DNA of 63,521 nucleotides from Deltaproteobacteria bacterium (GTDB taxonomy: Bacteria > JAEEML01), in NCBI GenBank assembly GCA_016283195.1, contig JAEEML010000089.1, positions 1-63,521 on the forward strand, given 5' to 3'. Made by a program: the position numbers and the translations under genes. Shown one piece after another: positions 1,704 through 60,719 of the stretch. Within the stretch, counting starts at the first letter, position 1. Each line of letters begins with the position of its first letter. The notes under the pieces are model-generated. The model saw only the letters and a program-made list of their open reading frames with translations, was not told where the DNA came from and made no database searches.

Positions 1704-1871
1704 AAATGCCTCCAAGCACAGCTTATATTTTAACATACACAAAACGTGGCGGCCAAGAGGAAAGTGCACACAAGCTTGTGCCACAGATAGGCTAAGGCTG
1801 GGTTTACCTTTTTATCACACCTTGAGGGAGTTTAATTAAGCAAGAGAAAGGCCGGTTAATGTGGCGATATT

Positions 1872-6017: not shown

Positions 6018-8663
<2,646 letters not shown>

Positions 8664-28216: not shown

Positions 28217-28304
28217 CTTGGCCTCCTTAGTTTAAAGTATATTGCCAGAAGTATTTCAAAAATGCTACACTTCCTGCTAGTGTTTTTTGCCAGAGGGGCC
28301 AGTT

Positions 28305-39540: not shown

Positions 39541-39743
39541 AATATTCCTCAAGGGAGCTAACCGACTCCGGCTAATTGTAACCAAGTAACCCTTTTTACT
39601 ATTCCCAAAAATTTTAGATAAAGCCGACATCATAGCTGAAACGGCAAAATTTTCCCCTATAGCCCCCTAAAAGCATATTGGCAAATAACCTAACTAGTGA
39701 CTATAGTGGTAGCGGCGTTTTTTTGCCTGATTAAGGAGCCATC

Positions 39744-46825: not shown

Positions 46826-46854
46826 TTGTCTTTTTTGATTTCCTAGACTACAAT
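46826..46854 (+). promoter_or_regulatory. Candidate sigma-70 promoter for the giant gene (TTGTCT-N17-TACAAT)
   Basis: -35 at 46826-46831 and -10 at 46849-46854 with 17-nt spacing, 48 nt upstream of ATG 46902. GGAGAAG RBS at 46892-46898. Pattern match only. Confidence 0.3.
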
Positions 46855-46901
46855 TAGCCGGAATATGCTGGCCTTTTTGTGCCGGCGAAGCGGAGAAGAC
46901 A

Positions 46902-49900
46902 ATGAAAAGTAGAGCAAAACTACCTTTTTCGTTTATACTTTTTGCTTCCGGATTATTGGCCGGATGTAGCGGTCAAATAGCTGTAAGTGAAGATATTTTC
47001 AATTGCAGTCCCGAGCAACCCAACGGCATTTGTCCCACCGGTGAGGTGTGTGTGAATGGCCATTGCGAAGCCATCTATCAGCCTTGTTCGCCAGCGTATC
47101 CAAATGGTGTGTGTCCGGAAGGCACTTGCGTTAATGGTATTTGTATGACCAGTAGCGGACAGAAGGCCTGCTCCAAAAATAACCCAGGCGGCTATTGCGA
47201 TAATCCGAATGAAGTTTGTCTTAACGGCAAATGTGTGACGCCCAAACCGGAAGAAGCCTGTTCAAGGGATGCTCCCGACGGTTGGTGCGACCCAGGTTAT
47301 TGCTGTACAGGCGGTGCTTGTTGGCCCTGCGGCTGTGTGTGCGGTATCGATTGCCCGGCCGGCCGCTGCAGTAGCGGAGAAATTTGTGATAACGGTGTTT
47401 GTAAACCGGCAGAAACGGTAACCACCAAATGCGGTCCGGGCCAATGTTCCGGCCTTTGTGAATATGCTCAAAATTGTGTCGAAGATATAAAAGGTGATTG
47501 TTCTTGCCAGGCGGCAGCTCCGGCCAGCGGCTGCTCACCAACTAATCTGGCCGGTGATTGCCCGGCCGGGCAGTGGTGTTTAGGCGGCAAATGCCAGGAA
47601 ATTTCCGATGATATGTCTTGCGGTAAAAATTGCGGTAGCGGCATTTGCTCCGGCCATGCTTATTGCGTCGCCGATAGCGAAGGCTGCTCCTGCCAGGAAA
47701 ATGTATCGCCGGATTTAGTGTGCTCGGTTAGTAATCCCACCGGTTTATGTCCTGATGGCCTGGTGTGTAATGCCGGTAGTTGTTCGGTACCTGAATGTAG
47801 CTCACTTACTCCTTGGGGCGATTGCCCGGCCGGGCAGAGCTGCGTAAAAGGGCGCTGCCAGAACGGCGGTGATGAGTGTTCACCCAGCAATCCGAGCGGC
47901 GTTTGCAATGATATCTGCGATGGCGATAACTGTTATGAAGCTGTTTGTAATGCCGGTATTTGCGTGGCCGCTACTTGTAGCAAAGAGCATCTGCGCGGGC
48001 GCTGTGGCGGTGATTGTCTGATTTGCCATGAAGGCTCCTGTATCACCCCGCCCTGTAGTAAAGAATACGCCTGCGGTACCTGCCCCTCCTGCCAAGTTTG
48101 TAACGAAAACGCCGATAGCCCTGATTACGGTACTTGCGGCCCGGCCGCCTGTTCACTGGCCTGCCCTGAGGGTACCTGCTCCAGCGAGCGCGAGATTTGT
48201 ACCTCTTCCGGTTTTTGCGAAGTGCCTGCTTGCAGTGTGATTTACCCTTGGGGTGATTGCCGTGTCGGTATGTATTGTGAGGAAAATAAGGGCCCATGCG
48301 CCGATTTAGCTACCCCTGAAGATTGTGCTACCGATGTGAGTTGTACCTGGAATCAAAAACTTAATGGCTGTGTACGCAAAAATTACGGCCAATGTACACT
48401 GGAAGAGTGCGGCAGTGCTCCGGTCAGCAATCTTATTTGTAACAACCCGGCCTGTGAAGCTCTTGATAGCCAGAATGCCTGTGCCGCCGGTCCGGAATGT
48501 ACCTGGGGGCGCTGTAACGGCGGTGGAGCCTGTCCCACCATTTTAACCGAGGCTGATTGTGCGGCTAATGTCAATTGTTGGTGGCAAAATGGCTGTTTTG
48601 ACGGCCGGATGTGTGTTGAAGGTCATTGTACAACACCGCTTTGTAGCAAGCTCTATCCAAATGGCCGTTGTGATGAAGGATCCACCTGTTATGAAGGTAC
48701 CTGTGTTAAACTCGGTTGCGAAAGCGATAACGATTGCCAGATTCTTTCCGAAAAATGCGAGCAGTTGCCCATCGGTACCACCGGTTGTATAAAACAGCCC
48801 TGTAGCGTGGAAAAACCGGAAGGTGACTGTCTCCTTCTGGGCAATGAATACTTTGGTGAAATCTGTGATGGCGGTAATTGTGTGATACCCAGCTGCTCCG
48901 CTACTTATCCCGGCGGTGCTTGCGGCGATGCCGTTTGCGATGCCGCTCAAAATGAGGCTGCCTGTGCCACTGCCGCGCCGCATTGTCGCTGGCGTCCGGC
49001 TTGTGTGGCCATAGCTGGGCACAACGGGCCTGCTGCCGGTGTAAGCTGCGAAAATAATAGCGATAAATCGAGCTGCGAAGCTGTTTCCGGTTGTAAGTGG
49101 CAAGGTTGTACCGATGGGCGCATCTGTGCCGGCGGTAATTGTCTCCTGCCGCCTTGTAGCGAAAGTGTGCCCGATGGTTCCTGCCCGGCCGGTATGGCCT
49201 GCGAAGCCGGTAAATGTACACTCCAAAATTGCGGCCCGGTCAACCCGGCTGGCCCCTGTGTTTGCTCCGATTTGAACGAAACCGATTGTAAGGACACCAT
49301 TAAGGGCCTTGGCTGTATGTGGGCAGGCGGTGCCTGTGTCAATGATCCGGCAGCCACCGGCTTCCGTATTTGTCTTGGCGGCGTATGTAAACCTTTTGTC
49401 TGCGGTGCCGATTTTGGTATTGCTCCCTGTTTGGACAGCAGTTCTATTTGCGGCTTTACCGGTAGTAGCGGCGATACTTGTAACGTGGGTGACCCCGGCG
49501 GCGGTGACGGTCATGGTTCACCTTGCTGCTTTAAGCCTTCTTGTTGTGATACTTATCCCACCGGTGCTTGCGGCGGCGGCAGTGAGCGTTGCGTCGGCGG
49601 TACTTGTCAAAAACTCCCCTGTAGTCAAAATGCTCCTGATGGTGCCTGCGGGGCCAACCAGGTGTGTGATAACGGCGTTTGCAAGCAGGCCGCTTGCTCG
49701 GCCGAAAATCCCGGCGGCCATTGTGAATGTTCTATTTTGAGTAAAGCCGATTGCGCGGACAGCCAAAAAGGCTTTGGTTGTAAGTGGGATAGCAGTTCGG
49801 CGAGCTGCGTTGATGACCCCGATAGCGCAGATATCCGCAAATGTGCCGGCGGGGTGTGTAAGCCTTACCTCTGCGGCGCTGATTTTGCCGATGCTCCCTG

Positions 49901-52900
49901 TTTAGTGCCCGGTACCGTGTGTGATTTGGTGAAGCACGGCGAAACTTGCGAAACCAGCCAGCTGGTAAATAACGGCGACGGTATTAATACCAATTGTTGC
50001 TATACCCCAGTTTGTTCTACCGATTACCCCGGCGGCTCTTGCCAGCCCGGCTATATTTGTAACGGCGGCACCTGTCAGCAACTGCCTTGTAGCGCTAGTA
50101 ATCCGGCCGGTGCCTGCGGCGCCGGCAAAGTGTGTGTAAACGGCGAATGTCTCTCCGCGCCCTGTAGCCCGGAAGTCCCCAAAGGTACCTGCAATTGCGG
50201 AAGCATTACCCGCCAGGCTGATTGTACCGGCAGCGGCGCGGCTTATGGCTGCAAATGGCAAGGTAATAAATGTATCGACGATCCGGCCTCCAGTGCCTCA
50301 ACTAGCTGTCTAAACGGCACTTGCGCTCCTTATCTCTGCCGCGCCGAGTTCCCCAATGCTCCTTGTACAAGTAGCGGATATGTTTGTAAAATTCCTGACG
50401 CCGGCGAAGTGTGCGAGGGTACTAATAGCGGTTCCAGCGGTGCCTGCTGCGTCAAACCGGCTTGTAGCACTGATTATCCCGGCGGTGCCTGCCCCGACGG
50501 CCAGACCTGTTCCGGCGGTACTTGCGTGCCGCTGCCCTGTAGCCAGGTCAACCAGAACGGTGCCTGTGCCAGCGGCAAAATTTGTAAACAGGGCACCTGT
50601 GTAACGGCTCCTTGTAGTAGTACTGCTCCGAACGGTACTTGCGAAAATGCCGGCCAGCGCTGCTATAACGGTGAGTGCCTTGATTATGTCTGCAGCCGCG
50701 AATTCCCCGGCGCTGCCTGTACTCAGGAGGGGGCAGTTTGTGGCGCTTTGGTCGATCCTACCAAAGAGAGCTGCCTCTCAACCGCTCGCGGTGACGGCTC
50801 TTCAGCAGCCAGCCCCTGCTGCTTTGTACCTACTTGCTCCGCTACTTATAAGAGCGGTACCTGTCAGGATAGCTATATTTGTAAAAACGGCGAGTGTACG
50901 CAGCTGCCCTGTAGCCAGGTTAATAAAAACGGTGCCTGCGCCAGCGGCCAGTATTGTAATAATGGCACCTGTGAAGCCATTGCCTGCTCGCGGGAAAATC
51001 CCACCGGCCCCTGTGCCGATAATACCCAGCGCTGTGTAAACGGAGTTTGCAAAGATTACCTTTGCGGCGCCGATTTCCCGAGCGCTCCCTGCAGTGAAAG
51101 CGGGGCGGTGTGTGGCAAAATTGTTAATAGTGCTAAAGAGCGTTGCCTCAATAATAACGGCAACGGCACTTCTACTAATTGCTGTTTTGAGCCCTGGTGC
51201 TCCGCTCAATATCCCTCCGGCAAGTGCGCGGATGGCTATATTTGCAAGGGTGGCAATTGTGAGCAGTTACCTTGCAGCCCCAGTGCTCCTAATGGTGTTT
51301 GCGGTGCCAATCAGCGCTGTGTCGAAGGTCAATGTGAAGCGGCTCCCTGTAGTAATACCGCTCTAAACGGCACTTGCCTCTGTGCCGACTTAGGGCAGGC
51401 GGCTTGTACCAATCCCGAGAGCGGTTTTGGTTGCAAATGGCAGGGTGGCAAATGTATTGATGACCCGGATTCCTCTTTCTATCAAAAATGTGTTAACGGT
51501 CACTGCATACCATACCTTTGCGGTGCCAATTTTGTTAACGGTCCCTGCGAAAACGGCGGTGCGGTTTGCGGTGTGCCGAGCGGCCTCGATAGCTGCCTTA
51601 ACGGTGCGAATAATCCTTCAGCCGAAAGTCCTTGCTGTTTCATTCCTCACTGCTCCAGTACTTATAAAAACGGCAGTTGTGAAGAAGGCTCCATTTGTAA
51701 AGAGGGCGTTTGTACCAAGCTCCCCTGTAGCGTGGCTGTGCCCGATGGTGCTTGCCCCACCGGCCAGGAGTGTAGTAGCGGCGTTTGCATTAAATCCGTT
51801 TGTAGCCAGAGTGTGCAAGACGGGCGCTGTGAATGTAGTGATATAACTGTCGAAAGTATTTGTACCAATCCCGAGAGCGGCTTTGGCTGCATCTGGCAAG
51901 GCGGCAAATGTATTGATGACCCGGCTTCTACCAACAGCCGCCACTGTTTGAACGGCAATTGTACGCCATATCTTTGCAGCGCCGCTTTCCCGAATGCTCC
52001 TTGTGCCGTAAGTGGTACAGTATGCGGTAAGCCGGCAAATGGCGAGAGCTGCGCCGATGGTGGCAACCCGGCCGTGGCCTGCTGTTATGTGCCTAATTGT
52101 TCCAATACCTACCCGGGCGGCGCTTGTCCGGCCGGCCAGTATTGCAGCGGCGGCCACTGTGTGGCTTATCCCTGTAGCGCAACCAATCCTACCGGCGCCT
52201 GTCCGGCCAGCCAGGTTTGTGAAAATGGCTCCTGTCAGCTGGCAAAATGTAGCAATACCGCTCAAGATGGTACCTGCTATTGCTCTGATATTACCGAGCA
52301 ATCTATCTGCATGAGCAATGTCACCGGCTTTGGCTGCAAATGGCAAAATGGTAAATGTATTGATGACCCGGATTCTGTTGATAGTATGAGTTGCTCTGGC
52401 GGCAGCTGTCAGCCTTACCTCTGCGGCGCTAATTTCCCGAATGCTCCCTGTAGCGAGAGCGGAGCCGTTTGCGGTAAACTTGTTGATAGTACTAAAGAAT
52501 CTTGTGAAAATAATCGCGGCGATGGCGTAAACAGCAACTGCTGCTTTAAGCCTTGGTGCAGTAGCACTTATCCATCCGGCCAGTGTCAGAGCGGCTATGT
52601 GTGCAGCAACGGTACTTGTATGCAACTGCCTTGCAGTGCCGGTAATCCCACCGGTGCCTGTGGTGCCGGCCAATATTGTAATGCCGGTGTTTGCACTCGC
52701 TATGCCTGTTCCGATGAGCACCCCACCGGCACTTGCGCGGCCGGCAAAGTGTGTGAAAAGGATAACGGCGCCGCCCATTATAGCTGTAGTTCGCCAGATT
52801 GTTCGGCCTCTTATCCTTACGGCGAATGTCATGCTGCCGGTACTATTTGTGTAGCCGGTACTTGTGAAGCCACCTGCGGCACCGGTGCCGGGCAAAGTGC

Positions 52901-55900
52901 CACCGGTTATTGTTCCGGCGGTCTCGCCTGTGTCATGACCGCTTGTGCCAATTCTTGCGAAAATGATTACGATTGTGATGGCATTCCCAATAGCGTGGAA
53001 GGTAATGACGCTATTGATACCGATGGCGACGGTATCCCGGATAGCCGTGATATCGATAGCGATAACGATAGCATTCCCGATCGCGTTGAGATAGGACCGG
53101 ATCCGGCCCATCCCTTGGATAGCGATGGCAACGGTACCCCCGATTACCGCCAAACCGATAGCGACGCCGACGGCATTCCCGATAGTGTCGAAGTTGGCCC
53201 CATTCCCACCCAGCCAGTGGATAGTGATGGCGACGGTATTCCCGATTACCGCGATGTCGATAGCGACGGCGATCTTATTTATGACAAATTTGAAGGCCAG
53301 GGCGATGTTGATCATGATGGTATCCCAAATTATTTGGATGATGACAGCGATGGCGATGGCATCCCCGATAGCATCGAAGCGCGGCCAACTCCTTATGATG
53401 ATAGTAGTTTCCACGCCGGTGATATTCCGGCCGACCATGACGGCGACGGCACTTACGACTTCCTCGACCTCGATAGCGATAATGATGGCGTTCTCGATAA
53501 AGACGAAGATGTCAACGGCAACGGTATCATCGATTGCCAAGTCAACGGGCGCGGCGAAGTTGTCTATGTTTGTGAAGAGATTACCAATAAAGATGTCTGT
53601 CAGGCTCATGAATGTACTTGGAACGACGCCGCCAAAGTCTGCGGCGAAACCAGCTGCCCCAATAGCTGTGATGTCAATGCCTTTAATCCCGGCTGTAAAG
53701 ATGATCATGCCCGCTGCGTTCTTTCCGAAACTTCGCGTATTCATGTTGACAGTGATTGCGACGGCATGGGCGACGGCAACGATGGCCTCTTCTTGGCTTG
53801 CGCCGCCGACAATTTGAAGCCCATCAACCTCTTCTACGACCGCGATGCCGATATAGCTATGGCTCTCGAGCAGGCTTTTGACGAAGCCGGTAAATTTAGC
53901 GTCGGCGGCGTGCGCGGTATCTACTTTGATGCCTCTAATAGCAGCGCTGCTTATGGCGTTTCCGGTTTTGTTCTCGCTAAAACTCCGGCCAGCGCGGCCA
54001 TTAACGAGAGCACTCCGCGGCAAAAGGTTATTAAGCAGGAAGAGTACGATCGCGGCCTCTTGTCCTCCTTTAATCCGCAGGTGGTTATTAGCCGCTATAG
54101 CGAGACTTTTGACGGTTTTGCCACTTCCATCTTCCGCTATACTTTGACTAGTAGCGGCTCTGTTTCCAATGCCCGTACCAATGTGCTTAAAGCTCTGGCC
54201 GGCGGCGCCAATGTGGGGACGCCTATCGGTTACGGTCCCAATGCCACGGCATATACCTTAATTATTCAAACTATTTACCGCTATGATGACGGCGGCTCAA
54301 ACGGGCGGGTTATTCTCCTTGGCGCCATTATCCCCACCGCGCTCTATGGTTCCTGCGGGGCTAATAATACCAGCGGTACTTGTAATGCTTTGGCTTCCTG
54401 TAATTTTGTAAATAATAAGTGTGTGGAATATGATTGCCGGGCCATTAATGGAGCAGCTTCATGTAATAGTAATAATCACTGTACCTGGAATGATATTGAC
54501 GAAATTTGCGACAATAAGCAGCTGCCGCTTTTCTATGTGAATAACGTCACTTCCGGTTCCACGGTGACCCAGTTTGGTGATGACCTAGACAAGCTCTGCC
54601 AGAGCTTCAGCCAAAAATCCGGTAAGGTGGACTTCCTCTGGCTGCTCGATTTCTCCAACTCTATTTACCCGGCTCGCCAGCAAATTAAGGACTCTGCCTC
54701 AACATTCTTTGAATTACTGAATAAGACTGAGGCCGACTTCCGTGCAGCCCAGACCGGTGCTCATACTTTTGATGATAACCAATCGCTTTATAGTGGTGTT
54801 AATAATTATTCCGGACAATATTTTACTATGTTCTATGGATATAACACATCAGGTGTAGCAAATAGTCCTTGGCCACCTAACTATGATTTCCGCGCTTGTG
54901 ATTCTTTAAATGGTGTTTGGGTTGGAGCCAATGGTTGTTTGATTGATGAATTTACCGGTTCTTTGGCCTTTAGCGATGACGTAGCTAACCGTGATTATCT
55001 CTGGAATTGTGCTTCGCAAATTAAAGGGCCAGGTTGTACAACTAATTATACATGCACGGCTTGCGGCGGTGCCACCAGCGGTACTGTTTACGCACCGGAA
55101 TGTTATTTTGCCTCCCGTATGGTTTGTAAAAATACTGTCGGTAACTCTGAAACGCCGCTCTTAATGGCTGAATGGGCCATGTACCGCTACTTTGATAAAC
55201 ACATTTGCGCGGATGCCTTTGAAGATGGTTCTCTCCCAACGGCGGAGACTTGTGATACTCGTGAAGGCTGTTTCTGGTCCGGCGGAAAATGTATTCCCAA
55301 TAACTGTGCTTTAGCTACTACCGCAGCGCAGTGCGAGACGATGATAGAAGATAATACCAATGATGGTGTTAAGCTTATCGGTTGTCTCTGGAATAATCAG
55401 ACAAATCAATGTGTGCCAAATTATAGCTGTGAAGCACAGCCAGATGACTTTGCCTGTAGTAATATAACTATTCAGAATACTTGCAATTTACTTGGATGTA
55501 CGTGGAATAGTTGGAGAGGTACATGTTCTGGTACCTTAAATAGAAATACATATAAACGTTGTGAGGACCTAACAACGGAAGCTAATTGCAAACTTGGCGC
55601 GCCTCTTTGCTATTGGAACGGTTCTAGCTGTGGCTGGTCTGTATGTGATAATAATAGTAAGGATCGTCCTATAGCTACATACTCACGTTGTTCAGTGGCT
55701 ACTACTCAAGCCGCCTGTCAGCAAAGCACTACCTGTGTTTGGGAAGACGGAGTTTGCCGGGCTCTGCCACGTGAACGGATGCGTATCGATGCCACTCCCA
55801 TTATAGTGGCTGTTACGGATGAAGAAGAATGTTTCTTAAAAGATAGCGCCGGGCAATATGGCAATGGTAATGGCACTTATACCAAAGCCGCTTGTGGTGG

Positions 55901-58900
55901 TTCACAATCAACAGGTGATAGTAAAGACTTTTACTCTGGTAATGCGGCTGATTCTTATGGCTACAACTGGTGGAATAGTTCTACTAAGGGTTATTATGTA
56001 CGGCAGCAGCGCCAGGAATCTTTCTCGCGCTTCTTCCAATCGCGCGGTACTTTAGTCTTTACCTTAACTGGTGAAAAAGCTACTACTCAAACCAATGGCG
56101 GGTGTCAGCTTGATGGTGATGGAGATGGTAAAATAACAGCAAGTACTTCAGGTAACCTTACTGCTGATATTAATGCTCAGCCGGGTAATGCTCTCATTAG
56201 CGTGGCCGAGAATACCGGTGGTGGTTGGGGTTCTATTTGTGCCACCAACGTTTATCCGGCTGTTGAGAGTATCATCATCACCTCGCTCGCCAAATCCTCC
56301 GCTTACAAACTGGAAGCGGCTATCGACGGCAAAAAGGTGCAGCCTATCGGTTCCACAATCAAAGTGGTGAGCGAAGTTTGCGCCGATGACCCGGCCATGA
56401 CTTATATGAATTACAATGACCGTTGTAACCAGGGTGATGAATATAGCTGCCGGGCCAATGGCTGTGCTTGGAAGAATGGCAGCTGCTCCGGCTGTACCAA
56501 CCGCATCTCTAAAGTCATCCCCATGAGCCGTGAAAACGGCTTTGATTACGATGCCTTAAATAACACTATTACTCTCTTTGGCTCAGCCCGCCCGGCCCGC
56601 GGCCGCGATATTGTGGTTTCCTTCCGTTACTGGATCAATAACCCGCAGCTACCCGAAGGGCCCAGCACCAATACCTGTTCGTGCCCGGGTACTTCCGATT
56701 GTAGCCAGCTTTCCGGCGAAGCAGCTTGTAAAGCAACTGGTACCTGTACCTGGACCGGCCTCGAATGTACCGGCGAATATGCCAGTAACTGCAGCGCTAT
56801 AAATAGCCAATCGGCCTGCACCGCCGACTCGGCCTGTAAGTGGGAAAATGGTACTTGTAAGTTTGCCTGTGCTTGTGCCGGCGGTGCCCAGTGCGGCGGT
56901 CTCTCCTGTGAAAATCAAACGACCGAAAATGGCTGTAATGCCACTATCGGCTGCGTCTGGACTGTGGGTATGTGTATGTCCACCGGTATTTGCAAGATTG
57001 ATCCGGAGTGCGGCCATAGCTGTAATGAGTATCAAACCTGTAACCCCAATACCGGTATTTGCGAATGTAATCTCGATTGTAATAACCAATGCGGCTTGGG
57101 CGAGATTTGTAATTACAACCAGGAATGTAGCGGTATTGGCGGCGAAGCGGCTTGTAGAGCGGTAGAGAGTGAAGGCGTTTGTTTCTGGCGCATAGATTCT
57201 CTTATCTGCGAAGACGGCGATTGCGGCAAATGTTTCTGCGACAAGACCTGCGGTGGTTGCGGCAAAGGGCAGTTGTGCGATAGTGATGAAAATTCCAATA
57301 CTTGCGGCCAGTGCCTCTGCAATACCACTTGTAGCGATACCAATTGCAATTATAACTGCGCGAGTGTTAATAATGCCGCTGATTGTGATGATTGGCCAGG
57401 CTGCTCTTGGGTAAACGGCAGCTGTAAGCGCACCGCCTACATGGAGTGCGATCCCGATCTAAATAGCGCTTCTTGCGGCTTTTGCGTGGTGGATAGCGAT
57501 TGTAGCTTACACCCCTGCGAAGAGGGCGAAATTTGTAACCCCACCACCGGTATGTGCGAATGTGACACCACCTGCGGCGGCGGCTGTAAAGCTGGCTTTA
57601 TTTGCGACAGCACCCCGAGTAGTCCGACCTGTGGTCAGTGCCATTGTGATGAAAACTGTGGTGGTGAGACGCCGCCCAGTGGGCAAAAGTGTGACGACAA
57701 CACCAATAGTGCTACCTGTGGCCTCTTTACCTGTGACCTCACTTGTGGTAGCCCCTGTGGTGCACACACCTATTGTGATGAAGATGAAGATTCGCCAACT
57801 TGTGGCCAGTGTGTTTGTGATACTACCTGTAACCACACAACACCCAACATCGGTATGAAGTGCGATGATAACACCAATAGCGCCACTTGTGGCCAGATTA
57901 TCTGTGGCGCGGCTTGTAACGGCGGCTGCCTGGCTGGCCAGATCTGTAATGAAGCCCTGGGCACTTGTGGTCAGTGTGTCTGCGATACCACTTGCGGTGG
58001 TTCCTGCCCAACCGGCCAAACCTGCGACAGTGACACAGGTAGTGCCACCTGTGGCCAGTGTGTTTGTGACACTACCTGCGGTGGCTCTTGCCCGGCCCAT
58101 TATAATTGCAATAGTGACATCACTAGCCCCACCTGTGGCCAGTGTGAGTGCGATACAAACTGTACCGGTCAGGATATTGGCATTGGTAAGAAGTGCGATG
58201 ATAATCCCTCTAGCCCCACTTGCGGCCAGGTAATTTGCGACACTACCTGTAACGGCGGCTGTGCCAGCGGCCAGAAATGTATCAGCGAACCCGCTAATCC
58301 CAAGTGCGGCCAGTGCGAATGTGATACCACTTGCGGCGGGGTGACTCCGGCAGCCGGTAGTGGCCTTAAGTGCGACAAAGATACCAATAGCCCCACTTGT
58401 GGCCAATTGGTTTGTGACACTACCTGTGGCGGGGCTGCTCCAGGCACCGGCATGAAGTGCGATACCAGCACCACCAGCCCCACTTGCGGCCAAATTGTTT
58501 GTGACACCGAGTGTGGTAACCGCTGCACCGGCGAAAAGGTTTGCGACAGCAGTGCCACCAGCGCCACCTGCGGTACCTGTATTTGCGGTGATGAGTGCGG
58601 CGGTCCTTGCCCGGTTGGCCAAACCTGTAACCCCGCCCTGGGTGATTGCGGCCAGTGCGTTTGCGACACTACTTGCGGCGGCGGTGAATGTCCCACCGGC
58701 CAGAAGTGCGATGATAACAGTAACAGCCCAACCTGCGGCGCCTGTATTTGCGACATCACCTGTCATGGGGCTACACCCGGAGCCGGCCAGAAGTGTGACA
58801 CCAATACTGCCAGTGCTACCTGTGGCCAGATTGTTTGCGATACTTCCTGTGGTAATAGCTGTTCTGGCGGCAAAGTGTGTGACGATAATATTAATAGCGC

Positions 58901-60719
58901 CACTTGCGGCCGCTGTGTTTGCCCGGATGGTGACGATTCCAGCTGTCTTGCCAGCCAAAAATGGCAAGCGGCGAGCGGCAGCGAATGTGGTAAGTGCGTT
59001 TGTGATACCACTTGTAAGAATAGCTGCACCGTGGGCCAGAAGTGCGATGACAATACTGGTAGCGGTACCTGTGGTCAATGTGTCTGCGATACCAATTGTA
59101 CCGGCCAGCCAATAGGTGCCGGGCAAAAGTGCGATAATAACCCCAGCAGTAATACTTGCGGTCAGCCGATTTGCGATACTAACTGTGGTGGCGTAAATTG
59201 CGGTGACGGCAAAGTGTGTGACAGCAATATCAGCAGTGCCACTTGTGGTAAATGTATCTGCGCTGAGGGTAGCGATGACGACTGTCTGCCCGGCCAAAAG
59301 TGGGATAAGAGCCAGGGTGAGTGTGGCGCTTGCGTTTGCGATATCACCTGCGGCGGCGGTTGTCTCTCCGGTCAAAAGTGCGATAGTACCATTGGTAGCC
59401 CCACTTGCGGCCAGTGTATCTGTGACACCACTTGCGGTGGTCCTTGCCCGGATAATTGGGATTGTGATAACGATAAGAATAGCCCGACTTGCGGTCAGTG
59501 TCAGTGTGATACCACTTGTGGCGGCGGCCAATGTACAGGTGGCAAGGTGTGCGATGACAACAGCGCCTCGCAAACTTGCGGCCAGTGTATTTGTGATCAA
59601 ACCTGTGGCGGAGCTTGTCCGGCCGGCCAGAGCTGTGACCAAAACCTGGCCTCACAAACTTGCGGCCAGTGTATTTGTGACACCACTTGCGGCGGAGCCT
59701 GCCCCACCGGCCAGAAATGCGACGGAACTTTGGGCAGCGCTACCTGCGGCCAGTGCCAATGTGATACCACTTGCGGCTTTGCAAATGCGGCCTCTATTCC
59801 GGCCGGCAAGAGCTGCGATAATAATCCGGCCAGCGCTACCTGCGGTCAGCTCATTTGTGATACCACCTGTGGCGGCAAAACTCCGGGTCTGGGTGAAAAA
59901 TGCGATAACAATCCGCTAAGCCCCACTTGCGGTGAGCTTATTTGCGATACCACCTGCGGCGGCGCTTACGGTCTTGGCCTGGTGTGTGACAGCGACCCGG
60001 ATAGCCCCACCTGCGGACAGCTGGTGTGCGACCAGACTTGCGGCGGTTCCTGCCCGGTAGGCCAGATGTGCGACAGCAATTATAACAGTCTCACCTGTGG
60101 TCAGTGCCTCTGTGACACCACCTGTGGAGATGTCACGCCGGCTCCCGGTATGACTTGCGATAGCAACGAGCTGAGTCCCACCTGCGGCCAGATTGTCTGT
60201 GATGTCACTTGCGGCGGTCCGTGTGATACCGGCAGCAGTTGTGATACCAATACGGCGAGCCCCACCTGCGGCCAGTGTGTTTGCGACCAAACATGTGGCG
60301 GCCTCTGTGAAGCCGATTCCAGCAAATACTGCGATAAAGAGCTGAATAGTGCCACCTGCGGTCAGTGCCTCTGCGATGCCACCTGCGGCGGTTCCTGTCC
60401 AACCGGCCAGTGCTGCGATGGCAATGACGAATGCGGCGCTATTCAGGATGAAATGAGCTGTCTGGCCAAAGATGGCTGTATATATCGTGCCGGTATCGGC
60501 TGTGAGTCACTTACCTGCGGCCAGTGTCAGGTTGATCCTACCTGCTGTAACTGCCAAGAATTGCCGAACGGCGCTACCAGCTGCTGTGCTGAGGGTACAG
60601 TTTGTAATCCCAATACCGGCCTTTGCGAAGTCAATGCCGATTGCTGTGCCGGGCGCGAGCCGGCCGAGCAATACCGCTGCAATATCTTCACCGGCGAGTG
60701 TATCTTCATCGCCGGGTGA
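46902..60719 (+). CDS. Giant (4605 aa) Cys-rich surface lipoprotein with nested Cys repeats, TSP3-like Ca loops, a VWA-like domain and ~37 six-Cys tandem units
   Basis: One uninterrupted 13,818-nt ORF. Signal peptide plus lipobox (LLAGC, Cys at 46965-46967). See the repeat features and findings below. No C-terminal TM or sorting signal that I recognise (ends ...CIFIAG). Confidence 0.9.
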   Translation: MKSRAKLPFSFILFASGLLAGCSGQIAVSEDIFNCSPEQPNGICPTGEVCVNGHCEAIYQPCSPAYPNGVCPEGTCVNGICMTSSGQKACSKNNPGGYCDNPNEVCLNGKCVTPKPEEACSRDAPDGWCDPGYCCTGGACWPCGCVCGIDCPAGRCSSGEICDNGVCKPAETVTTKCGPGQCSGLCEYAQNCVEDIKGDCSCQAAAPASGCSPTNLAGDCPAGQWCLGGKCQEISDDMSCGKNCGSGICSGHAYCVADSEGCSCQENVSPDLVCSVSNPTGLCPDGLVCNAGSCSVPECSSLTPWGDCPAGQSCVKGRCQNGGDECSPSNPSGVCNDICDGDNCYEAVCNAGICVAATCSKEHLRGRCGGDCLICHEGSCITPPCSKEYACGTCPSCQVCNENADSPDYGTCGPAACSLACPEGTCSSEREICTSSGFCEVPACSVIYPWGDCRVGMYCEENKGPCADLATPEDCATDVSCTWNQKLNGCVRKNYGQCTLEECGSAPVSNLICNNPACEALDSQNACAAGPECTWGRCNGGGACPTILTEADCAANVNCWWQNGCFDGRMCVEGHCTTPLCSKLYPNGRCDEGSTCYEGTCVKLGCESDNDCQILSEKCEQLPIGTTGCIKQPCSVEKPEGDCLLLGNEYFGEICDGGNCVIPSCSATYPGGACGDAVCDAAQNEAACATAAPHCRWRPACVAIAGHNGPAAGVSCENNSDKSSCEAVSGCKWQGCTDGRICAGGNCLLPPCSESVPDGSCPAGMACEAGKCTLQNCGPVNPAGPCVCSDLNETDCKDTIKGLGCMWAGGACVNDPAATGFRICLGGVCKPFVCGADFGIAPCLDSSSICGFTGSSGDTCNVGDPGGGDGHGSPCCFKPSCCDTYPTGACGGGSERCVGGTCQKLPCSQNAPDGACGANQVCDNGVCKQAACSAENPGGHCECSILSKADCADSQKGFGCKWDSSSASCVDDPDSADIRKCAGGVCKPYLCGADFADAPCLVPGTVCDLVKHGETCETSQLVNNGDGINTNCCYTPVCSTDYPGGSCQPGYICNGGTCQQLPCSASNPAGACGAGKVCVNGECLSAPCSPEVPKGTCNCGSITRQADCTGSGAAYGCKWQGNKCIDDPASSASTSCLNGTCAPYLCRAEFPNAPCTSSGYVCKIPDAGEVCEGTNSGSSGACCVKPACSTDYPGGACPDGQTCSGGTCVPLPCSQVNQNGACASGKICKQGTCVTAPCSSTAPNGTCENAGQRCYNGECLDYVCSREFPGAACTQEGAVCGALVDPTKESCLSTARGDGSSAASPCCFVPTCSATYKSGTCQDSYICKNGECTQLPCSQVNKNGACASGQYCNNGTCEAIACSRENPTGPCADNTQRCVNGVCKDYLCGADFPSAPCSESGAVCGKIVNSAKERCLNNNGNGTSTNCCFEPWCSAQYPSGKCADGYICKGGNCEQLPCSPSAPNGVCGANQRCVEGQCEAAPCSNTALNGTCLCADLGQAACTNPESGFGCKWQGGKCIDDPDSSFYQKCVNGHCIPYLCGANFVNGPCENGGAVCGVPSGLDSCLNGANNPSAESPCCFIPHCSSTYKNGSCEEGSICKEGVCTKLPCSVAVPDGACPTGQECSSGVCIKSVCSQSVQDGRCECSDITVESICTNPESGFGCIWQGGKCIDDPASTNSRHCLNGNCTPYLCSAAFPNAPCAVSGTVCGKPANGESCADGGNPAVACCYVPNCSNTYPGGACPAGQYCSGGHCVAYPCSATNPTGACPASQVCENGSCQLAKCSNTAQDGTCYCSDITEQSICMSNVTGFGCKWQNGKCIDDPDSVDSMSCSGGSCQPYLCGANFPNAPCSESGAVCGKLVDSTKESCENNRGDGVNSNCCFKPWCSSTYPSGQCQSGYVCSNGTCMQLPCSAGNPTGACGAGQYCNAGVCTRYACSDEHPTGTCAAGKVCEKDNGAAHYSCSSPDCSASYPYGECHAAGTICVAGTCEATCGTGAGQSATGYCSGGLACVMTACANSCENDYDCDGIPNSVEGNDAIDTDGDGIPDSRDIDSDNDSIPDRVEIGPDPAHPLDSDGNGTPDYRQTDSDADGIPDSVEVGPIPTQPVDSDGDGIPDYRDVDSDGDLIYDKFEGQGDVDHDGIPNYLDDDSDGDGIPDSIEARPTPYDDSSFHAGDIPADHDGDGTYDFLDLDSDNDGVLDKDEDVNGNGIIDCQVNGRGEVVYVCEEITNKDVCQAHECTWNDAAKVCGETSCPNSCDVNAFNPGCKDDHARCVLSETSRIHVDSDCDGMGDGNDGLFLACAADNLKPINLFYDRDADIAMALEQAFDEAGKFSVGGVRGIYFDASNSSAAYGVSGFVLAKTPASAAINESTPRQKVIKQEEYDRGLLSSFNPQVVISRYSETFDGFATSIFRYTLTSSGSVSNARTNVLKALAGGANVGTPIGYGPNATAYTLIIQTIYRYDDGGSNGRVILLGAIIPTALYGSCGANNTSGTCNALASCNFVNNKCVEYDCRAINGAASCNSNNHCTWNDIDEICDNKQLPLFYVNNVTSGSTVTQFGDDLDKLCQSFSQKSGKVDFLWLLDFSNSIYPARQQIKDSASTFFELLNKTEADFRAAQTGAHTFDDNQSLYSGVNNYSGQYFTMFYGYNTSGVANSPWPPNYDFRACDSLNGVWVGANGCLIDEFTGSLAFSDDVANRDYLWNCASQIKGPGCTTNYTCTACGGATSGTVYAPECYFASRMVCKNTVGNSETPLLMAEWAMYRYFDKHICADAFEDGSLPTAETCDTREGCFWSGGKCIPNNCALATTAAQCETMIEDNTNDGVKLIGCLWNNQTNQCVPNYSCEAQPDDFACSNITIQNTCNLLGCTWNSWRGTCSGTLNRNTYKRCEDLTTEANCKLGAPLCYWNGSSCGWSVCDNNSKDRPIATYSRCSVATTQAACQQSTTCVWEDGVCRALPRERMRIDATPIIVAVTDEEECFLKDSAGQYGNGNGTYTKAACGGSQSTGDSKDFYSGNAADSYGYNWWNSSTKGYYVRQQRQESFSRFFQSRGTLVFTLTGEKATTQTNGGCQLDGDGDGKITASTSGNLTADINAQPGNALISVAENTGGGWGSICATNVYPAVESIIITSLAKSSAYKLEAAIDGKKVQPIGSTIKVVSEVCADDPAMTYMNYNDRCNQGDEYSCRANGCAWKNGSCSGCTNRISKVIPMSRENGFDYDALNNTITLFGSARPARGRDIVVSFRYWINNPQLPEGPSTNTCSCPGTSDCSQLSGEAACKATGTCTWTGLECTGEYASNCSAINSQSACTADSACKWENGTCKFACACAGGAQCGGLSCENQTTENGCNATIGCVWTVGMCMSTGICKIDPECGHSCNEYQTCNPNTGICECNLDCNNQCGLGEICNYNQECSGIGGEAACRAVESEGVCFWRIDSLICEDGDCGKCFCDKTCGGCGKGQLCDSDENSNTCGQCLCNTTCSDTNCNYNCASVNNAADCDDWPGCSWVNGSCKRTAYMECDPDLNSASCGFCVVDSDCSLHPCEEGEICNPTTGMCECDTTCGGGCKAGFICDSTPSSPTCGQCHCDENCGGETPPSGQKCDDNTNSATCGLFTCDLTCGSPCGAHTYCDEDEDSPTCGQCVCDTTCNHTTPNIGMKCDDNTNSATCGQIICGAACNGGCLAGQICNEALGTCGQCVCDTTCGGSCPTGQTCDSDTGSATCGQCVCDTTCGGSCPAHYNCNSDITSPTCGQCECDTNCTGQDIGIGKKCDDNPSSPTCGQVICDTTCNGGCASGQKCISEPANPKCGQCECDTTCGGVTPAAGSGLKCDKDTNSPTCGQLVCDTTCGGAAPGTGMKCDTSTTSPTCGQIVCDTECGNRCTGEKVCDSSATSATCGTCICGDECGGPCPVGQTCNPALGDCGQCVCDTTCGGGECPTGQKCDDNSNSPTCGACICDITCHGATPGAGQKCDTNTASATCGQIVCDTSCGNSCSGGKVCDDNINSATCGRCVCPDGDDSSCLASQKWQAASGSECGKCVCDTTCKNSCTVGQKCDDNTGSGTCGQCVCDTNCTGQPIGAGQKCDNNPSSNTCGQPICDTNCGGVNCGDGKVCDSNISSATCGKCICAEGSDDDCLPGQKWDKSQGECGACVCDITCGGGCLSGQKCDSTIGSPTCGQCICDTTCGGPCPDNWDCDNDKNSPTCGQCQCDTTCGGGQCTGGKVCDDNSASQTCGQCICDQTCGGACPAGQSCDQNLASQTCGQCICDTTCGGACPTGQKCDGTLGSATCGQCQCDTTCGFANAASIPAGKSCDNNPASATCGQLICDTTCGGKTPGLGEKCDNNPLSPTCGELICDTTCGGAYGLGLVCDSDPDSPTCGQLVCDQTCGGSCPVGQMCDSNYNSLTCGQCLCDTTCGDVTPAPGMTCDSNELSPTCGQIVCDVTCGGPCDTGSSCDTNTASPTCGQCVCDQTCGGLCEADSSKYCDKELNSATCGQCLCDATCGGSCPTGQCCDGNDECGAIQDEMSCLAKDGCIYRAGIGCESLTCGQCQVDPTCCNCQELPNGATSCCAEGTVCNPNTGLCEVNADCCAGREPAEQYRCNIFTGECIFIAG
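49149..52880 (+). repeat. Eight ~115-135-aa super-repeats inside the giant gene
   Basis: Each unit contains PCS..xPxGxC, a C-x-W module (GFGCKWQGGKCIDDP), P-Y-L-C-G-A-x-F-P-N-A-P-C, CCF-x-P-x-CS..YP.G.C and QLPCS. The YLCGA-type landmark occurs 8 times: FVCGADFGIAPC, YLCGADFADAPC, YLCRAEFPNAPC, YVCSREFPGAAC, YLCGADFPSAPC, YLCGANFVNGPC, YLCSAAFPNAPC, YLCGANFPNAPC. Confidence 0.85.
52966..53540 (+). repeat. About 12 thrombospondin-type-3-like D-x-D-x-D-G-x-x-D calcium-binding loops
   Basis: DTDGDGIPDSRD, DSDNDSIPDRVE, DSDGNGTPDYRQ, DSDADGIPDSVE, DSDGDGIPDYRD, DSDGDLIYDKFE, DVDHDGIPNYLD, DSDGDGIPDSIE, DHDGDGTYDFLD, DSDNDGVLDKDE and others. Confidence 0.8.
57222..60430 (+). repeat. About 37 tandem 26-32-aa six-Cys units (consensus T-C-G-Q-C-x-C-D-T-T-C-G-G-x-C-P-x-G-Q-x-C-D-x4-S-x)
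   Basis: Counted by hand from the translation. Units run head to tail in frame with small length variation. One C-x-W module interrupts unit 2. Confidence 0.85.

What the first reader, a model, noticed from the sequence alone, without database searches (positions are those of the whole stretch)
46902..60719. 13.8-kb single ORF encoding a 4605-aa Cys-rich lipoprotein with a thrombospondin/integrin-like domain vocabulary
**Uninterrupted ORF.** The ORF has a good RBS, a signal peptide and an LAGC lipobox.

**Domain order.** From N- to C-terminus:
1. about 750 aa of short CS-x3-P-x-G-x-C-x2-G-x2-C-x2-G-x-C units mixed with C-x-W modules;
2. eight ~125-aa super-repeats;
3. about 12 TSP-type-3-like calcium loops;
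4. a ~1,250-aa central region containing a VWA-like domain with a DxSxS MIDAS motif;
5. about 37 tandem six-Cys units;
6. a Cys-rich tail with no anchor.

**Cysteine load.** My rough estimate is several hundred Cys, on the order of one residue in seven. This is not an exact count.

**Why it stands out.** The combination of TSP3, VWA and EGF-like knots mirrors animal extracellular-matrix proteins. I do not recognise the two dominant repeat types as any named family.

**Possible roles.** It could be a giant adhesin or matrix fibre, a prey- or host-contact structure, or a massive thiolate/metal- or mineral-binding surface polymer. This is the best candidate in the window for something undescribed.
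Basis: partly seen in the sequence, partly recalled or inferred. Interest (0 to 1): 0.85.

Follow-up and report, generated by a model that had tools for sequence, protein, structure and literature searches.

The report
Giant cysteine-rich integrin-like surface adhesin
This 13.8-kb gene is real and encodes the largest known member of an unnamed group of giant, disulfide-rich relatives of CglD, the integrin-like surface lipoprotein that helps Myxococcus grip surfaces while gliding, so it is a striking new variant of a known kind of adhesin rather than something wholly new.

Summary

It has an identifiable family. The central ~1050 aa is homologous to the core of CglD, the Myxococcus beta-integrin-like gliding lipoprotein:
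- A profile of this core finds true CglD at E~1e-20 among 1.8 billion proteins.
- hhalign against CglD gives 99.4% probability.
- A superfamily profile finds integrin beta I-domains in the PDB at E 1e-7.
- All five beta-I-type MIDAS residues are present: D2583, S2585, S2587, E2750, D2973.

The C-terminal 28-aa unit is the CglD stalk repeat, expanded to 35 copies. Two of its Cys are present or absent strictly together (22:0:0:11), which indicates a disulfide pair rather than free thiols.

The ~2000-aa N-terminal array of 25-aa four-Cys units matches no family model or solved structure. So does the ~340-aa Cys-rich insertion inside the VWA domain.

About 27 clusters of such giants exist (1421-3422 aa). 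All are "hypothetical proteins" in Myxococcota or "Deltaproteobacteria" MAGs, and this one is the longest.

Most likely function: an outer-membrane-anchored, Ca2+- and MIDAS-dependent adhesin carried on long disulfide-bonded rods. Any link to gliding is untested.

Verdict: new variant of a known kind.

The parts
46826..46854 (+). Promoter-like site (TTGTCT, 17 nt spacer, TACAAT) in the 188-nt divergent intergenic region
   Evidence: Consensus scan only, 9 of 12 matches. Weak evidence.
46892..46895 (+). Shine-Dalgarno core GGAG, 6 nt upstream of the ATG
   Evidence: Read directly from the sequence.
46902..46967 (+). Lipoprotein signal peptide with lipobox L-A-G-C (aa 1-22). Cys22 would be the lipidated first residue of the mature protein.
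   Evidence: Translation. Homologues P0002-P0011 carry the same kind of N-terminus. No signal-peptidase-II predictor was run.
47004..49544 (+). N-terminal array part A (aa 35-881): about 19 four-Cys units of 25-28 aa (CSx3PxGxCx2Gx2Cx2GxC), interspersed with 6 C-x-W modules
   Evidence: Regex and spacing tables. No Pfam, NCBIfam or PDB match.
49545..52964 (+). Eight super-repeats (aa 882-2021) with periods of 121-156 aa. Each holds three 25-aa units, then an optional C-x-W module, then a 'CxPYLCGAxFPxAPC...CC' block.
   Evidence: the aligned super-repeat sequences. DNA copies are 60-90% identical (families D5-D9).
52965..53513 (+). Thrombospondin type-3-like Ca2+-binding loops (aa 2022-2204), 10 DxDxDG loops
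   Evidence: Pfam TSP_3 at 27.0 bits against a cut-off of 25, in 5 stretches. Weaker hits to the NCBIfam models BamM, MtsC and CglD. Loop list.
53769..54338 (+). Alpha/beta domain preceding the VWA (aa 2290-2479), conserved across the whole superfamily including CglD
   Evidence: AlphaFold pLDDT is mostly above 90. hhalign aligns it to CglD residues ~450-620. Foldseek gives only weak matches to MTC28, LpqN and 3lyd (E 8e-3 to 0.2).
54489..54758 (+). First half of the beta-I-like VWA domain (aa 2530-2619), containing MIDAS D2583-F-S2585-N-S2587 (nt 54648-54662)
   Evidence: D, S and S are conserved in 64-67 of 68 family members. They align to DLSAS of integrin beta-6. Model: strand 371-378, helix 382-403, strand 408-415.
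54759..55781 (+). Cys-rich insertion of ~340 aa inside the VWA (aa 2620-2960), with about five C-x-W modules. It contains the conserved MIDAS Glu E2750 (nt 55149-55151).
   Evidence: Profile positions ~410-715 are covered only in the giants and are absent from the 600-1300 aa relatives. E546 (= E2750) is conserved in 66 of 68 and aligns to the 'PEGG' Glu of integrin beta-6.
55782..56303 (+). Second half of the VWA (aa 2961-3134): 'IIVAVTD2973EEE' (D at nt 55818-55820) and 'GGGWGSICA'
   Evidence: D769 (= D2973) is conserved in 67 of 68 and aligns to 'LLVFVSDAD' of integrin beta-6. The model shows alternating strands and helices with pLDDT 85-96.
56304..56648 (+). C-terminal beta-sandwich of the core (aa 3135-3249), ending in the 'SFRYWIN' motif, with one inserted C-x-W module
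   Evidence: Aligns to CglD 832-961 (40 bits). The model is all-beta with pLDDT ~90 outside the insert.
56676..57218 (+). Linker of C-x-W modules (aa 3259-3439)
57219..60461 (+). C-terminal stalk array (aa 3440-4520): 35 units of 26-32 aa, consensus CGQCxCDTTCGGxCPxGQxCDxxxxSxT, interrupted by a few C-x-W and other Cys modules
   Evidence: Paired presence or absence of two Cys, 22:0:0:11, Fisher p=5e-9. Homologous to the CglD stalk: hhalign 86.5%, E 4.5e-6; HMM hits in CglD orthologues.
60462..60719 (+). Cys-rich tail (aa 4521-4605) and stop codon. No recognisable sorting or anchor signal.
   Evidence: Translation. Homologues end in a similar way.

Best explanation
The gene encodes a giant cell-surface adhesin of the CglD / beta-integrin-like lipoprotein superfamily.

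**Proposed mechanism, with what is shown and what is inferred:**
1. The protein is exported by Sec, lipidated at Cys22, and sent to the outer membrane and cell surface. The lipobox is shown. The localisation is inferred from CglD.
2. About 43 four-Cys units in the first ~2000 aa form a disulfide-bonded, protease- and force-resistant rod. This rod holds the head far from the membrane. The modular repeat is shown. The rod shape and its length (tens of nm) are inferred.
3. About 10 TSP3 loops bind Ca2+. The motif is shown. The binding is inferred.
4. The head consists of an alpha/beta domain, a beta-I-type VWA and a beta-sandwich. It binds its ligand by completing the coordination of a divalent cation held by D2583, S2585, S2587, E2750 and D2973. 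Residue conservation and homology to integrin beta I-domains are shown. Ligand binding is inferred.
5. The 35-unit C-terminal array is an expanded CglD-type Cys-rich stalk. Homology is shown.

The ligand is unknown. It could be substratum, matrix, prey or host-derived material. It is also unknown whether the protein couples to a gliding motor as CglD does.
For: **Homology of the core to CglD**
- A profile of the core (A1) retrieves bona fide CglD at E 1e-20 in a library of 1.84 billion proteins. That protein, P0146, scores 1597 bits on NF033765.
- hhalign of A1 against CglD gives 99.4% probability over 311 columns.
- Separate HMM stretches align the VWA start (59 bits) and the beta-sandwich (40 bits).

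**Beta-I character of the VWA domain**
- The superfamily profile A3 hits integrin beta-6, -8, -3 and -1 beta-I domains at E 1e-7 to 1e-5. Integrin alpha-L I domains score only ~1e-3.
- The alignment matches DxSxS, the PEGG Glu and the 'SD' Asp. These residues are conserved in 64-67 of 68 family members, the window protein included.

**Structure model**
- The AlphaFold model of the core reaches pTM 0.80, with core domains at pLDDT above 90.

**Stalk and disulfides**
- The stalk unit is homologous to the CglD stalk.
- Two Cys of the unit are gained and lost strictly together.

**Other features**
- TSP_3 scores above its Pfam cut-off.
- A lipobox is present in the window protein and in its homologues.

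**What is known of CglD**
- CglD is a surface-exposed lipoprotein with DTT-sensitive disulfides, Ca2+-dependent function and a functionally important MIDAS Asp (bioRxiv 10.1101/2023.10.19.562135).
- Like cglD, this gene stands alone with no conserved neighbours.
Against: - The protein scores only 41 bits on the CglD equivalog model, against a cut-off of 400. It is four times longer than CglD. It is a distant paralogue-level relative, not CglD itself.
- Foldseek of the window model finds nothing at E<=1e-3. The integrin beta matches cover only ~62 columns (E 0.07-0.3).
- The VWA domain is split by a ~340-aa insertion whose effect on ligand access is unknown.
- There is no expression, localisation or binding data.
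- No gliding genes are visible in the 63.5-kb window.
- The organism may live in an anoxic gut or rumen. How more than 300 disulfides would be formed and kept there is an open question.
Confidence: 0.7

Rival explanations
1. It is the functional counterpart of CglD. On this view it is a component of a gliding-motility focal-adhesion system that anchors a Glt/Agl-type motor complex to the substratum.
For: - Homology to CglD in the head and the stalk.
- The host lineage has Myxococcota or 'Deltaproteobacteria' affinity.
- cglD itself is never clustered with glt genes, so the absence of gliding genes nearby is uninformative.
Against: - The score is 41 bits against a 400-bit equivalog cut-off.
- The preprint itself notes CglD homologues in deltaproteobacteria that lack most of the gliding genes. 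It suggests the link to gliding arose only within Cystobacterineae.
- The giants form a separate clade with extra arrays and a VWA insertion.
- No Glt, Agl or CglB genes are in the window.
Confidence: 0.15
2. It is a structural matrix, cell-cell cohesion or cell-coat fibre. Its job would be to build an extracellular scaffold (compare the TSP3-bearing cohesion proteins MtsC and MtsD) rather than to bind an external ligand.
For: - The TSP3 segment gives weak hits to the MtsC model (24 bits).
- The protein is very long and repetitive, and has no C-terminal anchor.
- Several other Cys-rich secreted or lipoproteins are encoded in the same window.
Against: - The whole head is conserved, with an intact MIDAS in 64-67 of 68 relatives. 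This points to specific metal-dependent ligand binding.
- The MtsC hit is far below its cut-off of 350 bits.
Confidence: 0.1
3. It is a thiolate-rich polymer that binds metal or mineral.
For: There are 608 Cys with regular spacing, including CxxC-like 'CGQC' motifs.
Against: - The 'GGxC' Cys and the second Cys of the next 'CGQC' are present together 22 times, absent together 11 times, and never present singly. This is the signature of a disulfide pair.
- The homologous Cys-rich region of CglD behaves as disulfide-bonded under DTT titration.
- There is no similarity to metallothioneins or to any metal-binding family.
- The protein is exported, because it has a lipoprotein signal peptide.
Confidence: 0.03
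4. The ORF is an assembly artefact. Collapsed or chimeric repeats would have created an artificially long gene.
For: It is 1200-2000 aa longer than any relative found. It is highly repetitive at the protein level.
Against: - Repeat copies are only 60-90% identical at the DNA level. No tandem DNA repeat is detected. Short-read assemblers would therefore not confuse the copies.
- The domain order is collinear with all homologues.
- The extra length comes from more copies of modules that the relatives also have: 43 against 14-26 N-units, and 35 against 6-17 C-units.
Confidence: 0.02

Closest known systems
CglD (MXAN_0962; NCBIfam NF033765), the beta-integrin-like adventurous-gliding lipoprotein of Myxococcus xanthus
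   Same: - N-terminal lipobox.
- A run of TSP3/COMP-like DxDxDG loops.
- A conserved alpha/beta domain, then a VWA with MIDAS DxSxS...D, then a beta-sandwich ending in 'YRYW'.
- A C-terminal Cys-rich stalk built from the same 'CxCDxxCGGxCxxGxxC' unit.
- A stand-alone gene.

The homology is statistically solid.
   Different: - 4605 aa against ~1100-1130 aa.
- 13.2% Cys against ~4%.
- A ~2000-aa N-terminal four-Cys array that CglD lacks.
- A ~340-aa Cys-rich insertion inside the VWA.
- 35 stalk units where CglD orthologues show only a few weak matches.
- 41 bits against a 400-bit cut-off on the CglD model.
- A role in gliding is untested.
Integrin beta subunits (beta-I domain; e.g. PDB 5ffg_B and 4um9_B for beta-6, 3fcs_B for beta-3)
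   Same: - A VWA-type domain with the beta-type MIDAS set Asp-x-Ser-x-Ser, Glu, Asp.
- Integrin beta I-domains are the best-scoring VWA-type structures for the family profile (E 1e-7).
- A Cys-rich stalk made of short disulfide modules.
- A 'CGQCVC' motif reminiscent of I-EGF domains. This last point is recalled from memory and is not statistically supported.
   Different: - No transmembrane helix or cytoplasmic tail. The anchor is an N-terminal lipid.
- No Pfam hit to PSI, integrin-beta or EGF models.
- The stalk profile finds no I-EGF in the PDB at E<=10.
- The domain before the VWA looks MTC28/PsbP-like, not like the integrin hybrid domain.
- No alpha-subunit partner is known.
- The Foldseek match is local and weak.
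Thrombospondin / COMP type-3 repeats (Pfam PF02412) and bacterial TSP3-bearing surface proteins (MtsC, MtsD, BamM, OmpA-family)
   Same: 10-11 DxDxDG calcium-loop motifs. The Pfam TSP_3 score is just above its cut-off.
   Different: This is only a 180-aa segment of the protein. The hits to the MtsC and BamM models are far below their cut-offs.
Bdellovibrio MIDAS-family adhesin Bd0875 (NCBIfam NF052240; PMC11003981)
   Same: A MIDAS-bearing adhesin of a predatory 'delta-proteobacterium'. Intermediate members of the superfamily (P0060, P0097, P0118) give weak hits to this model around the MIDAS region.
   Different: The window protein gives no hit to this model at E<=1. Size and architecture are unrelated.

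Membership tests
CglD (NCBIfam NF033765, equivalog) | Whole-protein score at or above the curated cut-off (400 bits) | tested here: not met
   29-41 bits, covering only model positions 612-753. True CglD orthologues score 640-1597 bits.
CglD / beta-integrin-like lipoprotein superfamily (wider homology group) | Homologous core: alpha/beta domain, then MIDAS VWA, then beta-sandwich with the YRYW motif | tested here: met
   The core profile finds CglD at E 1e-20 in 1.84 billion proteins. hhalign gives 99.4%. HMM stretches score 59 and 40 bits. 1809 relatives have E<=1e-3.
CglD / beta-integrin-like lipoprotein superfamily | N-terminal lipoprotein signal with lipobox Cys | tested here: met
   LLAG|C at aa 19-22. 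Judged by inspection only; no dedicated predictor was available.
CglD / beta-integrin-like lipoprotein superfamily | C-terminal Cys-rich stalk of CglD-type repeats | tested here: met
   Unit profile A4 against CglD orthologue P0075 residues 980-1021: 86.5% probability, E 4.5e-6, 55% identity. Unit HMM hits in CglD orthologues.
CglD | Physical or functional coupling to the Glt/Agl gliding machinery, and surface exposure | not testable with these tools
   Only a 63.5-kb window is available and it shows no glt, agl or cglB genes. Experiments or the full genome are needed.
Integrin beta-I-type VWA domain | MIDAS residues Asp-x-Ser-x-Ser, Glu, Asp at the homologous positions | tested here: met
   D2583, S2585, S2587, E2750 and D2973 are conserved in 64-67 of 68 relatives. 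They align to DLSAS, PEGG and SDAD of integrin beta-6.
Integrin beta-I-type VWA domain | Significant sequence-profile similarity to solved beta-I domains | tested here: met
   Profile A3, whose first row is the window protein, against PDB: integrin beta-6, -8, -3 and -1 at E 1e-7 to 1e-5, with alpha-L I domains at ~1e-3. The narrower profile A1, built from giants only, found nothing.
Integrin beta-I-type VWA domain | Structural superposition of the predicted fold on beta-I domains | tested here: inconclusive
   Foldseek of the pTM 0.80 model: integrin beta chains at E 0.07-0.3 over ~62 columns, and no hit at E<=1e-3. The 340-aa insertion splits the domain, and the model could not be cut into pieces with the tools available.
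Integrin beta subunit (full architecture) | PSI domain, hybrid domain, I-EGF1-4, beta-tail, transmembrane helix, cytoplasmic tail | tested here: not met
   No Pfam hit to PSI, EGF or integrin-beta models at E<=1. The stalk profile finds no I-EGF in the PDB. The pre-VWA domain matches MTC28 and LpqN weakly. The anchor is an N-terminal lipid and the C-terminus has no hydrophobic helix.
Thrombospondin type-3 repeat (Pfam PF02412) | Score at or above the gathering threshold (25 bits), with a DxDxDGxxDxxD calcium-loop motif | tested here: met
   27.0 bits in 5 stretches on aa 2011-2300. 10-11 loops found by motif. The margin is small.
EGF / laminin-EGF domains (Pfam PF00008, PF00053 and related models) | Match to an EGF-family model | tested here: not met
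   No hit at E<=1 in any segment. The same library does detect EGF domains in two other proteins of the window.
Bdellovibrio MIDAS-family adhesin (NCBIfam NF052240) | Match to the family model | tested here: not met
   Not listed at E<=1 for the window protein.

The most novel reading that the evidence does not exclude
These giants may be a distinct, previously undescribed class of bacterial integrin-beta-like adhesins, confined to uncultured Myxococcota-like lineages. In this reading the MIDAS head is mounted between two disulfide-knotted rods, each tens of nanometres long, and its VWA domain carries a large Cys-rich insertion.

The protein would then serve a purpose other than CglD-type gliding. 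One candidate is long-range capture of prey cells or of host or plant-fibre surfaces in a gut or rumen habitat.

If so, the N-terminal 25-aa four-Cys unit is a new protein fold family. The family would also document how far the integrin-beta-like head plus Cys-rich stalk design diversified in bacteria independently of eukaryotes.
Probability: 0.35. Interest if true: 0.75.

Novelty: new variant of a known kind. Interest (0 to 1): 0.55.

Why it matters
CglD is so far the only experimentally studied bacterial protein with a beta-integrin-like head and a Cys-rich stalk.

This work shows that the same head exists in a separate clade of 1.4-4.6-kaa proteins with 8-14% cysteine. That widens the known range of this design. 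It also supplies natural 'length variants' for asking what the stalk does, for example reach, force transmission or protease resistance.

The family is entirely unannotated: every member found is a 'hypothetical protein'. The link to CglD gives annotators and experimenters a concrete hypothesis, namely Ca2+- and MIDAS-dependent adhesion.

The N-terminal 25-aa unit and the C-x-W module have no model in Pfam or NCBIfam and no solved relative. They are candidates for new domain families.

The strict co-occurrence of two Cys across 33 repeats gives a free, sequence-only assignment of one disulfide. Structure prediction or mass spectrometry can test it.

Finally, the host appears to be a deep-branching lineage with no close relative in very large collections, yet with gut- or rumen-like acquired genes. 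That makes the adhesin's target ecologically interesting.

Tried and rejected
**Searches that found nothing**
- Whole-protein Pfam and NCBIfam scans gave almost nothing because of the composition. Splitting the protein into 7 segments recovered TSP_3 and the CglD lead.
- PDB sequence searches found nothing for the TSP3 segment, the N-terminal 2010 aa, the C-terminal 1045 aa, and the two repeat profiles (A4, A5). The one exception was a non-significant cystine-dense peptide at E 0.15.
- A PDB search with the narrow profile built from giants only (A1) found nothing. Only the broader 68-sequence profile reached the integrins.
- Literature searches found no description of the giant clade.

**Structure prediction and fold search**
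- The first AlphaFold run used 10 sequences and was useless (pLDDT 36). It was discarded and never fold-searched.
- The second run used 68 sequences and was good. Both jobs went on the core, so neither repeat class could be modelled.
- Foldseek of the full 1054-residue model gave no hit at E<=1e-3.

**Relationships tested and not supported**
- The N-unit and C-unit profiles are not significantly related (hhalign 19%). I do not claim that they are one family.
- The idea that the C-x-W modules are PSI domains, and that 'CGQCVC' marks integrin I-EGF domains, rests on my memory of motifs only. The model and profile tests were negative.

**Neighbourhood and taxonomy**
- No conserved gene neighbourhood was found in two homologue loci or in the window.
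- The exact protein is not on record in the contig index.
- Taxonomy from PPDK and from a P-type ATPase was misleading. Those proteins are 84% identical to gut Clostridia and 75% to rumen Treponema, so they are probably acquired genes.
- A PlsB-like gene found no relatives.
- The ClpB-like protein and DnaJ point to Myxococcota or 'Deltaproteobacteria' MAGs, at only 49-57% identity.


Full report
**1. The observation**

The window holds one uninterrupted ORF at 46902-60719 on the + strand, 4605 codons plus a stop.
- A GGAG lies 6 nt before the ATG.
- A promoter-like site sits in the 188-nt gap to the divergently transcribed upstream gene.
- The product starts MKSRAKLPFSFILFASGLLAG|C, a textbook lipoprotein signal with an L-A-G-C lipobox.
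- It contains 608 Cys, or 13.2%.

The long antisense ORFs inside the gene (801 aa at 51618-54023 and 711 aa at 57507-59642, both on the - strand) are most simply shadow ORFs of a stop-poor repetitive gene.

- The eight super-repeats have periods of 121-156 aa. Five are ~150 aa, two are ~122 aa, and the last is degenerate. They are not a uniform ~125 aa.
- There are 10-11 TSP3-type loops.
- The C-terminal array has 35 units of 26-32 aa. In the 33 aligned units, 22 carry six Cys and 11 carry four.

**2. Is the ORF real?**

At the DNA level the repeat copies are only 60-90% identical, and Tandem Repeats Finder reports nothing. Assembly collapse or chimerism is therefore unlikely.

Ten homologues from other assemblies are 2543-3172 aa long and 31-34% identical. 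They share the same collinear architecture and also begin with lipoprotein signals. The gene is real and under selection.

**3. What family is it?**

Scans of the whole protein are nearly blind. Segment scans give two leads:
- Pfam TSP_3 scores just above its threshold (27.0 against 25 bits).
- There is a weak partial hit to NCBIfam 'adventurous gliding motility lipoprotein CglD' (41 bits against a 400-bit cut-off).

I aligned the central ~1050 aa of the window protein with its nine nearest relatives (A1) and searched 1.84 billion representative proteins. 1809 proteins scored E<=1e-3. They fall into two groups:
- About 27 clusters of 'giants', 1421-3422 aa with 8-14% Cys, cover the whole profile.
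- Hundreds of 600-1300-aa, low-Cys proteins match three blocks: an alpha/beta domain, the start of a VWA domain, and the end of the VWA plus a beta-sandwich. They lack profile positions ~410-715.

Among the second group are bona fide CglD orthologues. P0146 scores 1597 bits on the CglD model and is hit by my profile at E 1e-20.
- hhalign of A1 against that CglD gives 99.4% probability over 311 columns.
- HMM stretches of 59 and 40 bits align the 'DFLWVVDNSGSM' strand and the 'GGxxGSI...YRYW' beta-sandwich.

The C-terminal 28-aa unit is also shared. Its profile aligns to the Cys-rich stalk of a CglD orthologue at 86.5% probability, E 4.5e-6, 55% identity.

So the protein is a distant, greatly enlarged relative of CglD. 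It is not CglD itself.

**4. The head**

A first AlphaFold run with 10 sequences failed (pLDDT 36). With a 68-sequence superfamily alignment (A3) the core folds with pTM 0.80 and pLDDT above 90 in the conserved domains.

Foldseek of the whole 1054-residue model against the PDB gives no hit at E<=1e-3:
- The pre-VWA alpha/beta domain weakly resembles MTC28, LpqN and 3lyd.
- About 62 columns around the MIDAS strand and helix match many integrin beta chains at E 0.07-0.3.

I count that as inconclusive.

Sequence profiles are clearer. A3 against all PDB chains returns integrin beta-6, -8, -3 and -1 beta-I domains at E 1e-7 to 1e-5, ahead of integrin alpha-L I domains at ~1e-3. The printed alignment matches three segments:
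- DxSxS, as 'VDLYYLMDLSASM'.
- The 'PEGG' Glu.
- The 'LLVFVSDAD' Asp.

In the window protein these residues are D2583, S2585, S2587, E2750 and D2973. They are conserved in 64-67 of the 68 aligned relatives. This is the beta-I flavour of MIDAS, with Glu rather than Thr as the fourth ligand.

It agrees with the published HHpred assignment of CglD to integrin beta-3. It also agrees with the reported phenotype of a CglD D656N mutant (bioRxiv 10.1101/2023.10.19.562135, read).

In the giants the VWA is split by a ~340-aa Cys-rich insertion (aa 2620-2960). The insertion is made largely of C-x-W modules and still carries the conserved Glu.

**5. The repeats**

*N-terminal unit.* The unit is 25 aa with four Cys (CSx3PxGxCx2Gx2Cx2GxC). 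It occurs 43 times in the window protein, against 14-26 times in most full-length relatives. It has no match in Pfam, NCBIfam or PDB sequences. It is not significantly related to the C-unit.

*C-x-W module.* The module (C-x7-9-C-x5-8-C-x-W-x3-6-C) occurs about 22 times: in the N-array, inside the head, and before the stalk. It reminded me of PSI domains, but no model supports that.

*C-terminal unit.* One feature can be read directly from the sequence. The Cys of 'GGxC' in one unit and the second Cys of the following 'CGQC' are present together in 22 junctions and absent together in 11. They are never present singly (Fisher p = 5e-9). That is what a disulfide pair looks like.

Together with the DTT-dependent mobility of CglD, this argues that the cysteines are structural disulfides, not free thiolates.

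**6. Context and host**

The gene stands alone.
- Its flanks are an NTP-transferase and a DUF1295 gene upstream (divergent).
- Downstream are a leucine-carboxyl-methyltransferase-like gene and a Cys/Met PLP enzyme.
- Two homologue loci show no shared neighbours.
- cglD is likewise never clustered with gliding genes.

Family members in genome collections are all MAGs labelled Myxococcota, Deltaproteobacteria or Bdellovibrionales. All are annotated 'hypothetical protein'.

The window's own DnaJ has no relative above 57% identity. Its named neighbours are Deltaproteobacteria and Myxococcota MAGs. A ClpB-like protein is 49% identical to Myxococcota MAGs, including one (XB_MAG857) that also carries a giant.

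By contrast, PPDK is 84% identical to gut Clostridia, and a P-type ATPase is 75% identical to rumen Treponema. That suggests acquired genes and a gut- or rumen-type habitat.

**7. Mechanism**

*Shown:*
- A lipobox.
- TSP3 motifs.
- A beta-I-type MIDAS head homologous to that of CglD.
- A CglD-type stalk repeat.
- One disulfide assigned by covariation.

*Inferred:*
- Outer-membrane or surface localisation.
- Ca2+ loading of the TSP3 segment.
- MIDAS-cation-mediated binding of an acidic ligand group.
- Rod-like, disulfide-stapled arrays that hold the head tens of nm from the membrane and resist force and proteases.

*Unknown:*
- The ligand.
- Any coupling to a motor.

I put 0.7 on 'surface MIDAS adhesin of the CglD superfamily'. 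Within that, I put only ~0.15 on a CglD-like gliding role.

**8. Novelty**

This is not categorically new. It is a new variant, an unnamed giant clade, of a kind known from one preprint-level model protein.

The parts with no known counterpart are:
- The N-terminal four-Cys array.
- The C-x-W module.
- The VWA insertion.
- The scale: the window protein is the longest member seen, 4605 aa against at most 3422 aa.

Noticed in passing
window 28287-31745 (+): A second large Cys-rich protein of 1152 aa with a lipobox-like start (LFCLGC) and many 'C..DG.G.C'-type modules. It has no Pfam hit. It lies in a low-GC block (39-44%) with high GC skew, which may have a foreign origin.
   Followed up: partly
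window 9696-12527 (-) and 39744-42587 (+): Secreted glycan-active proteins decorated with animal-type Cys modules. One combines laminin/stabilin-type EGF, CBM20, CBM48 and Fib_succ_major. The other is an alpha-amylase with an EGF-like domain and CBM48. This genome uses Cys-rich modules widely on exported proteins.
   Followed up: partly
window 6018-8663 (-) and 33731-35821 (+): Pyruvate phosphate dikinase is 84% identical to gut Clostridia and Lachnospiraceae. A P-type ATPase is 75% identical to rumen Treponema. Yet DnaJ (4800-5906) has no relative above 57%. This suggests recent horizontal acquisition in a gut or rumen community by a deep-branching Myxococcota-like lineage.
   Followed up: partly
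window 13619-16315 (+): A PlsB-type glycerol-3-phosphate acyltransferase (898 aa). The peptide-pattern scan found no relative in 185,579 species genomes, which again points to an isolated lineage.
   Followed up: no
window 51618-54023 (-) and 57507-59642 (-): Antisense ORFs of 801 and 711 aa inside the giant gene. They are probably shadow ORFs of a stop-poor repetitive coding sequence, not genes.
   Followed up: no
window 62057-63217 (+): A Cys/Met-metabolism PLP enzyme (cystathionine gamma-synthase/lyase type, 519 bits) lies 1.3 kb downstream of a gene that needs 608 cysteines per molecule. This may be coincidence.
   Followed up: no
window 12716-13615 (+); 38174-39633 (-); 1011-1784 (-): Three further genes: an FHA-GGDEF diguanylate cyclase, an ECF sigma factor with a ZAS-type anti-sigma factor, and an Rpn-family recombination-promoting nuclease/transposase. 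No link to the giant gene was established.
   Followed up: no
P0007 (homologue, aa ~1500-1700): One giant homologue carries an extra ~200-aa non-Cys domain between the alpha/beta domain and the VWA, at the position where the window protein has C-x-W modules. This position seems to be a hot spot for insertions.
   Followed up: no
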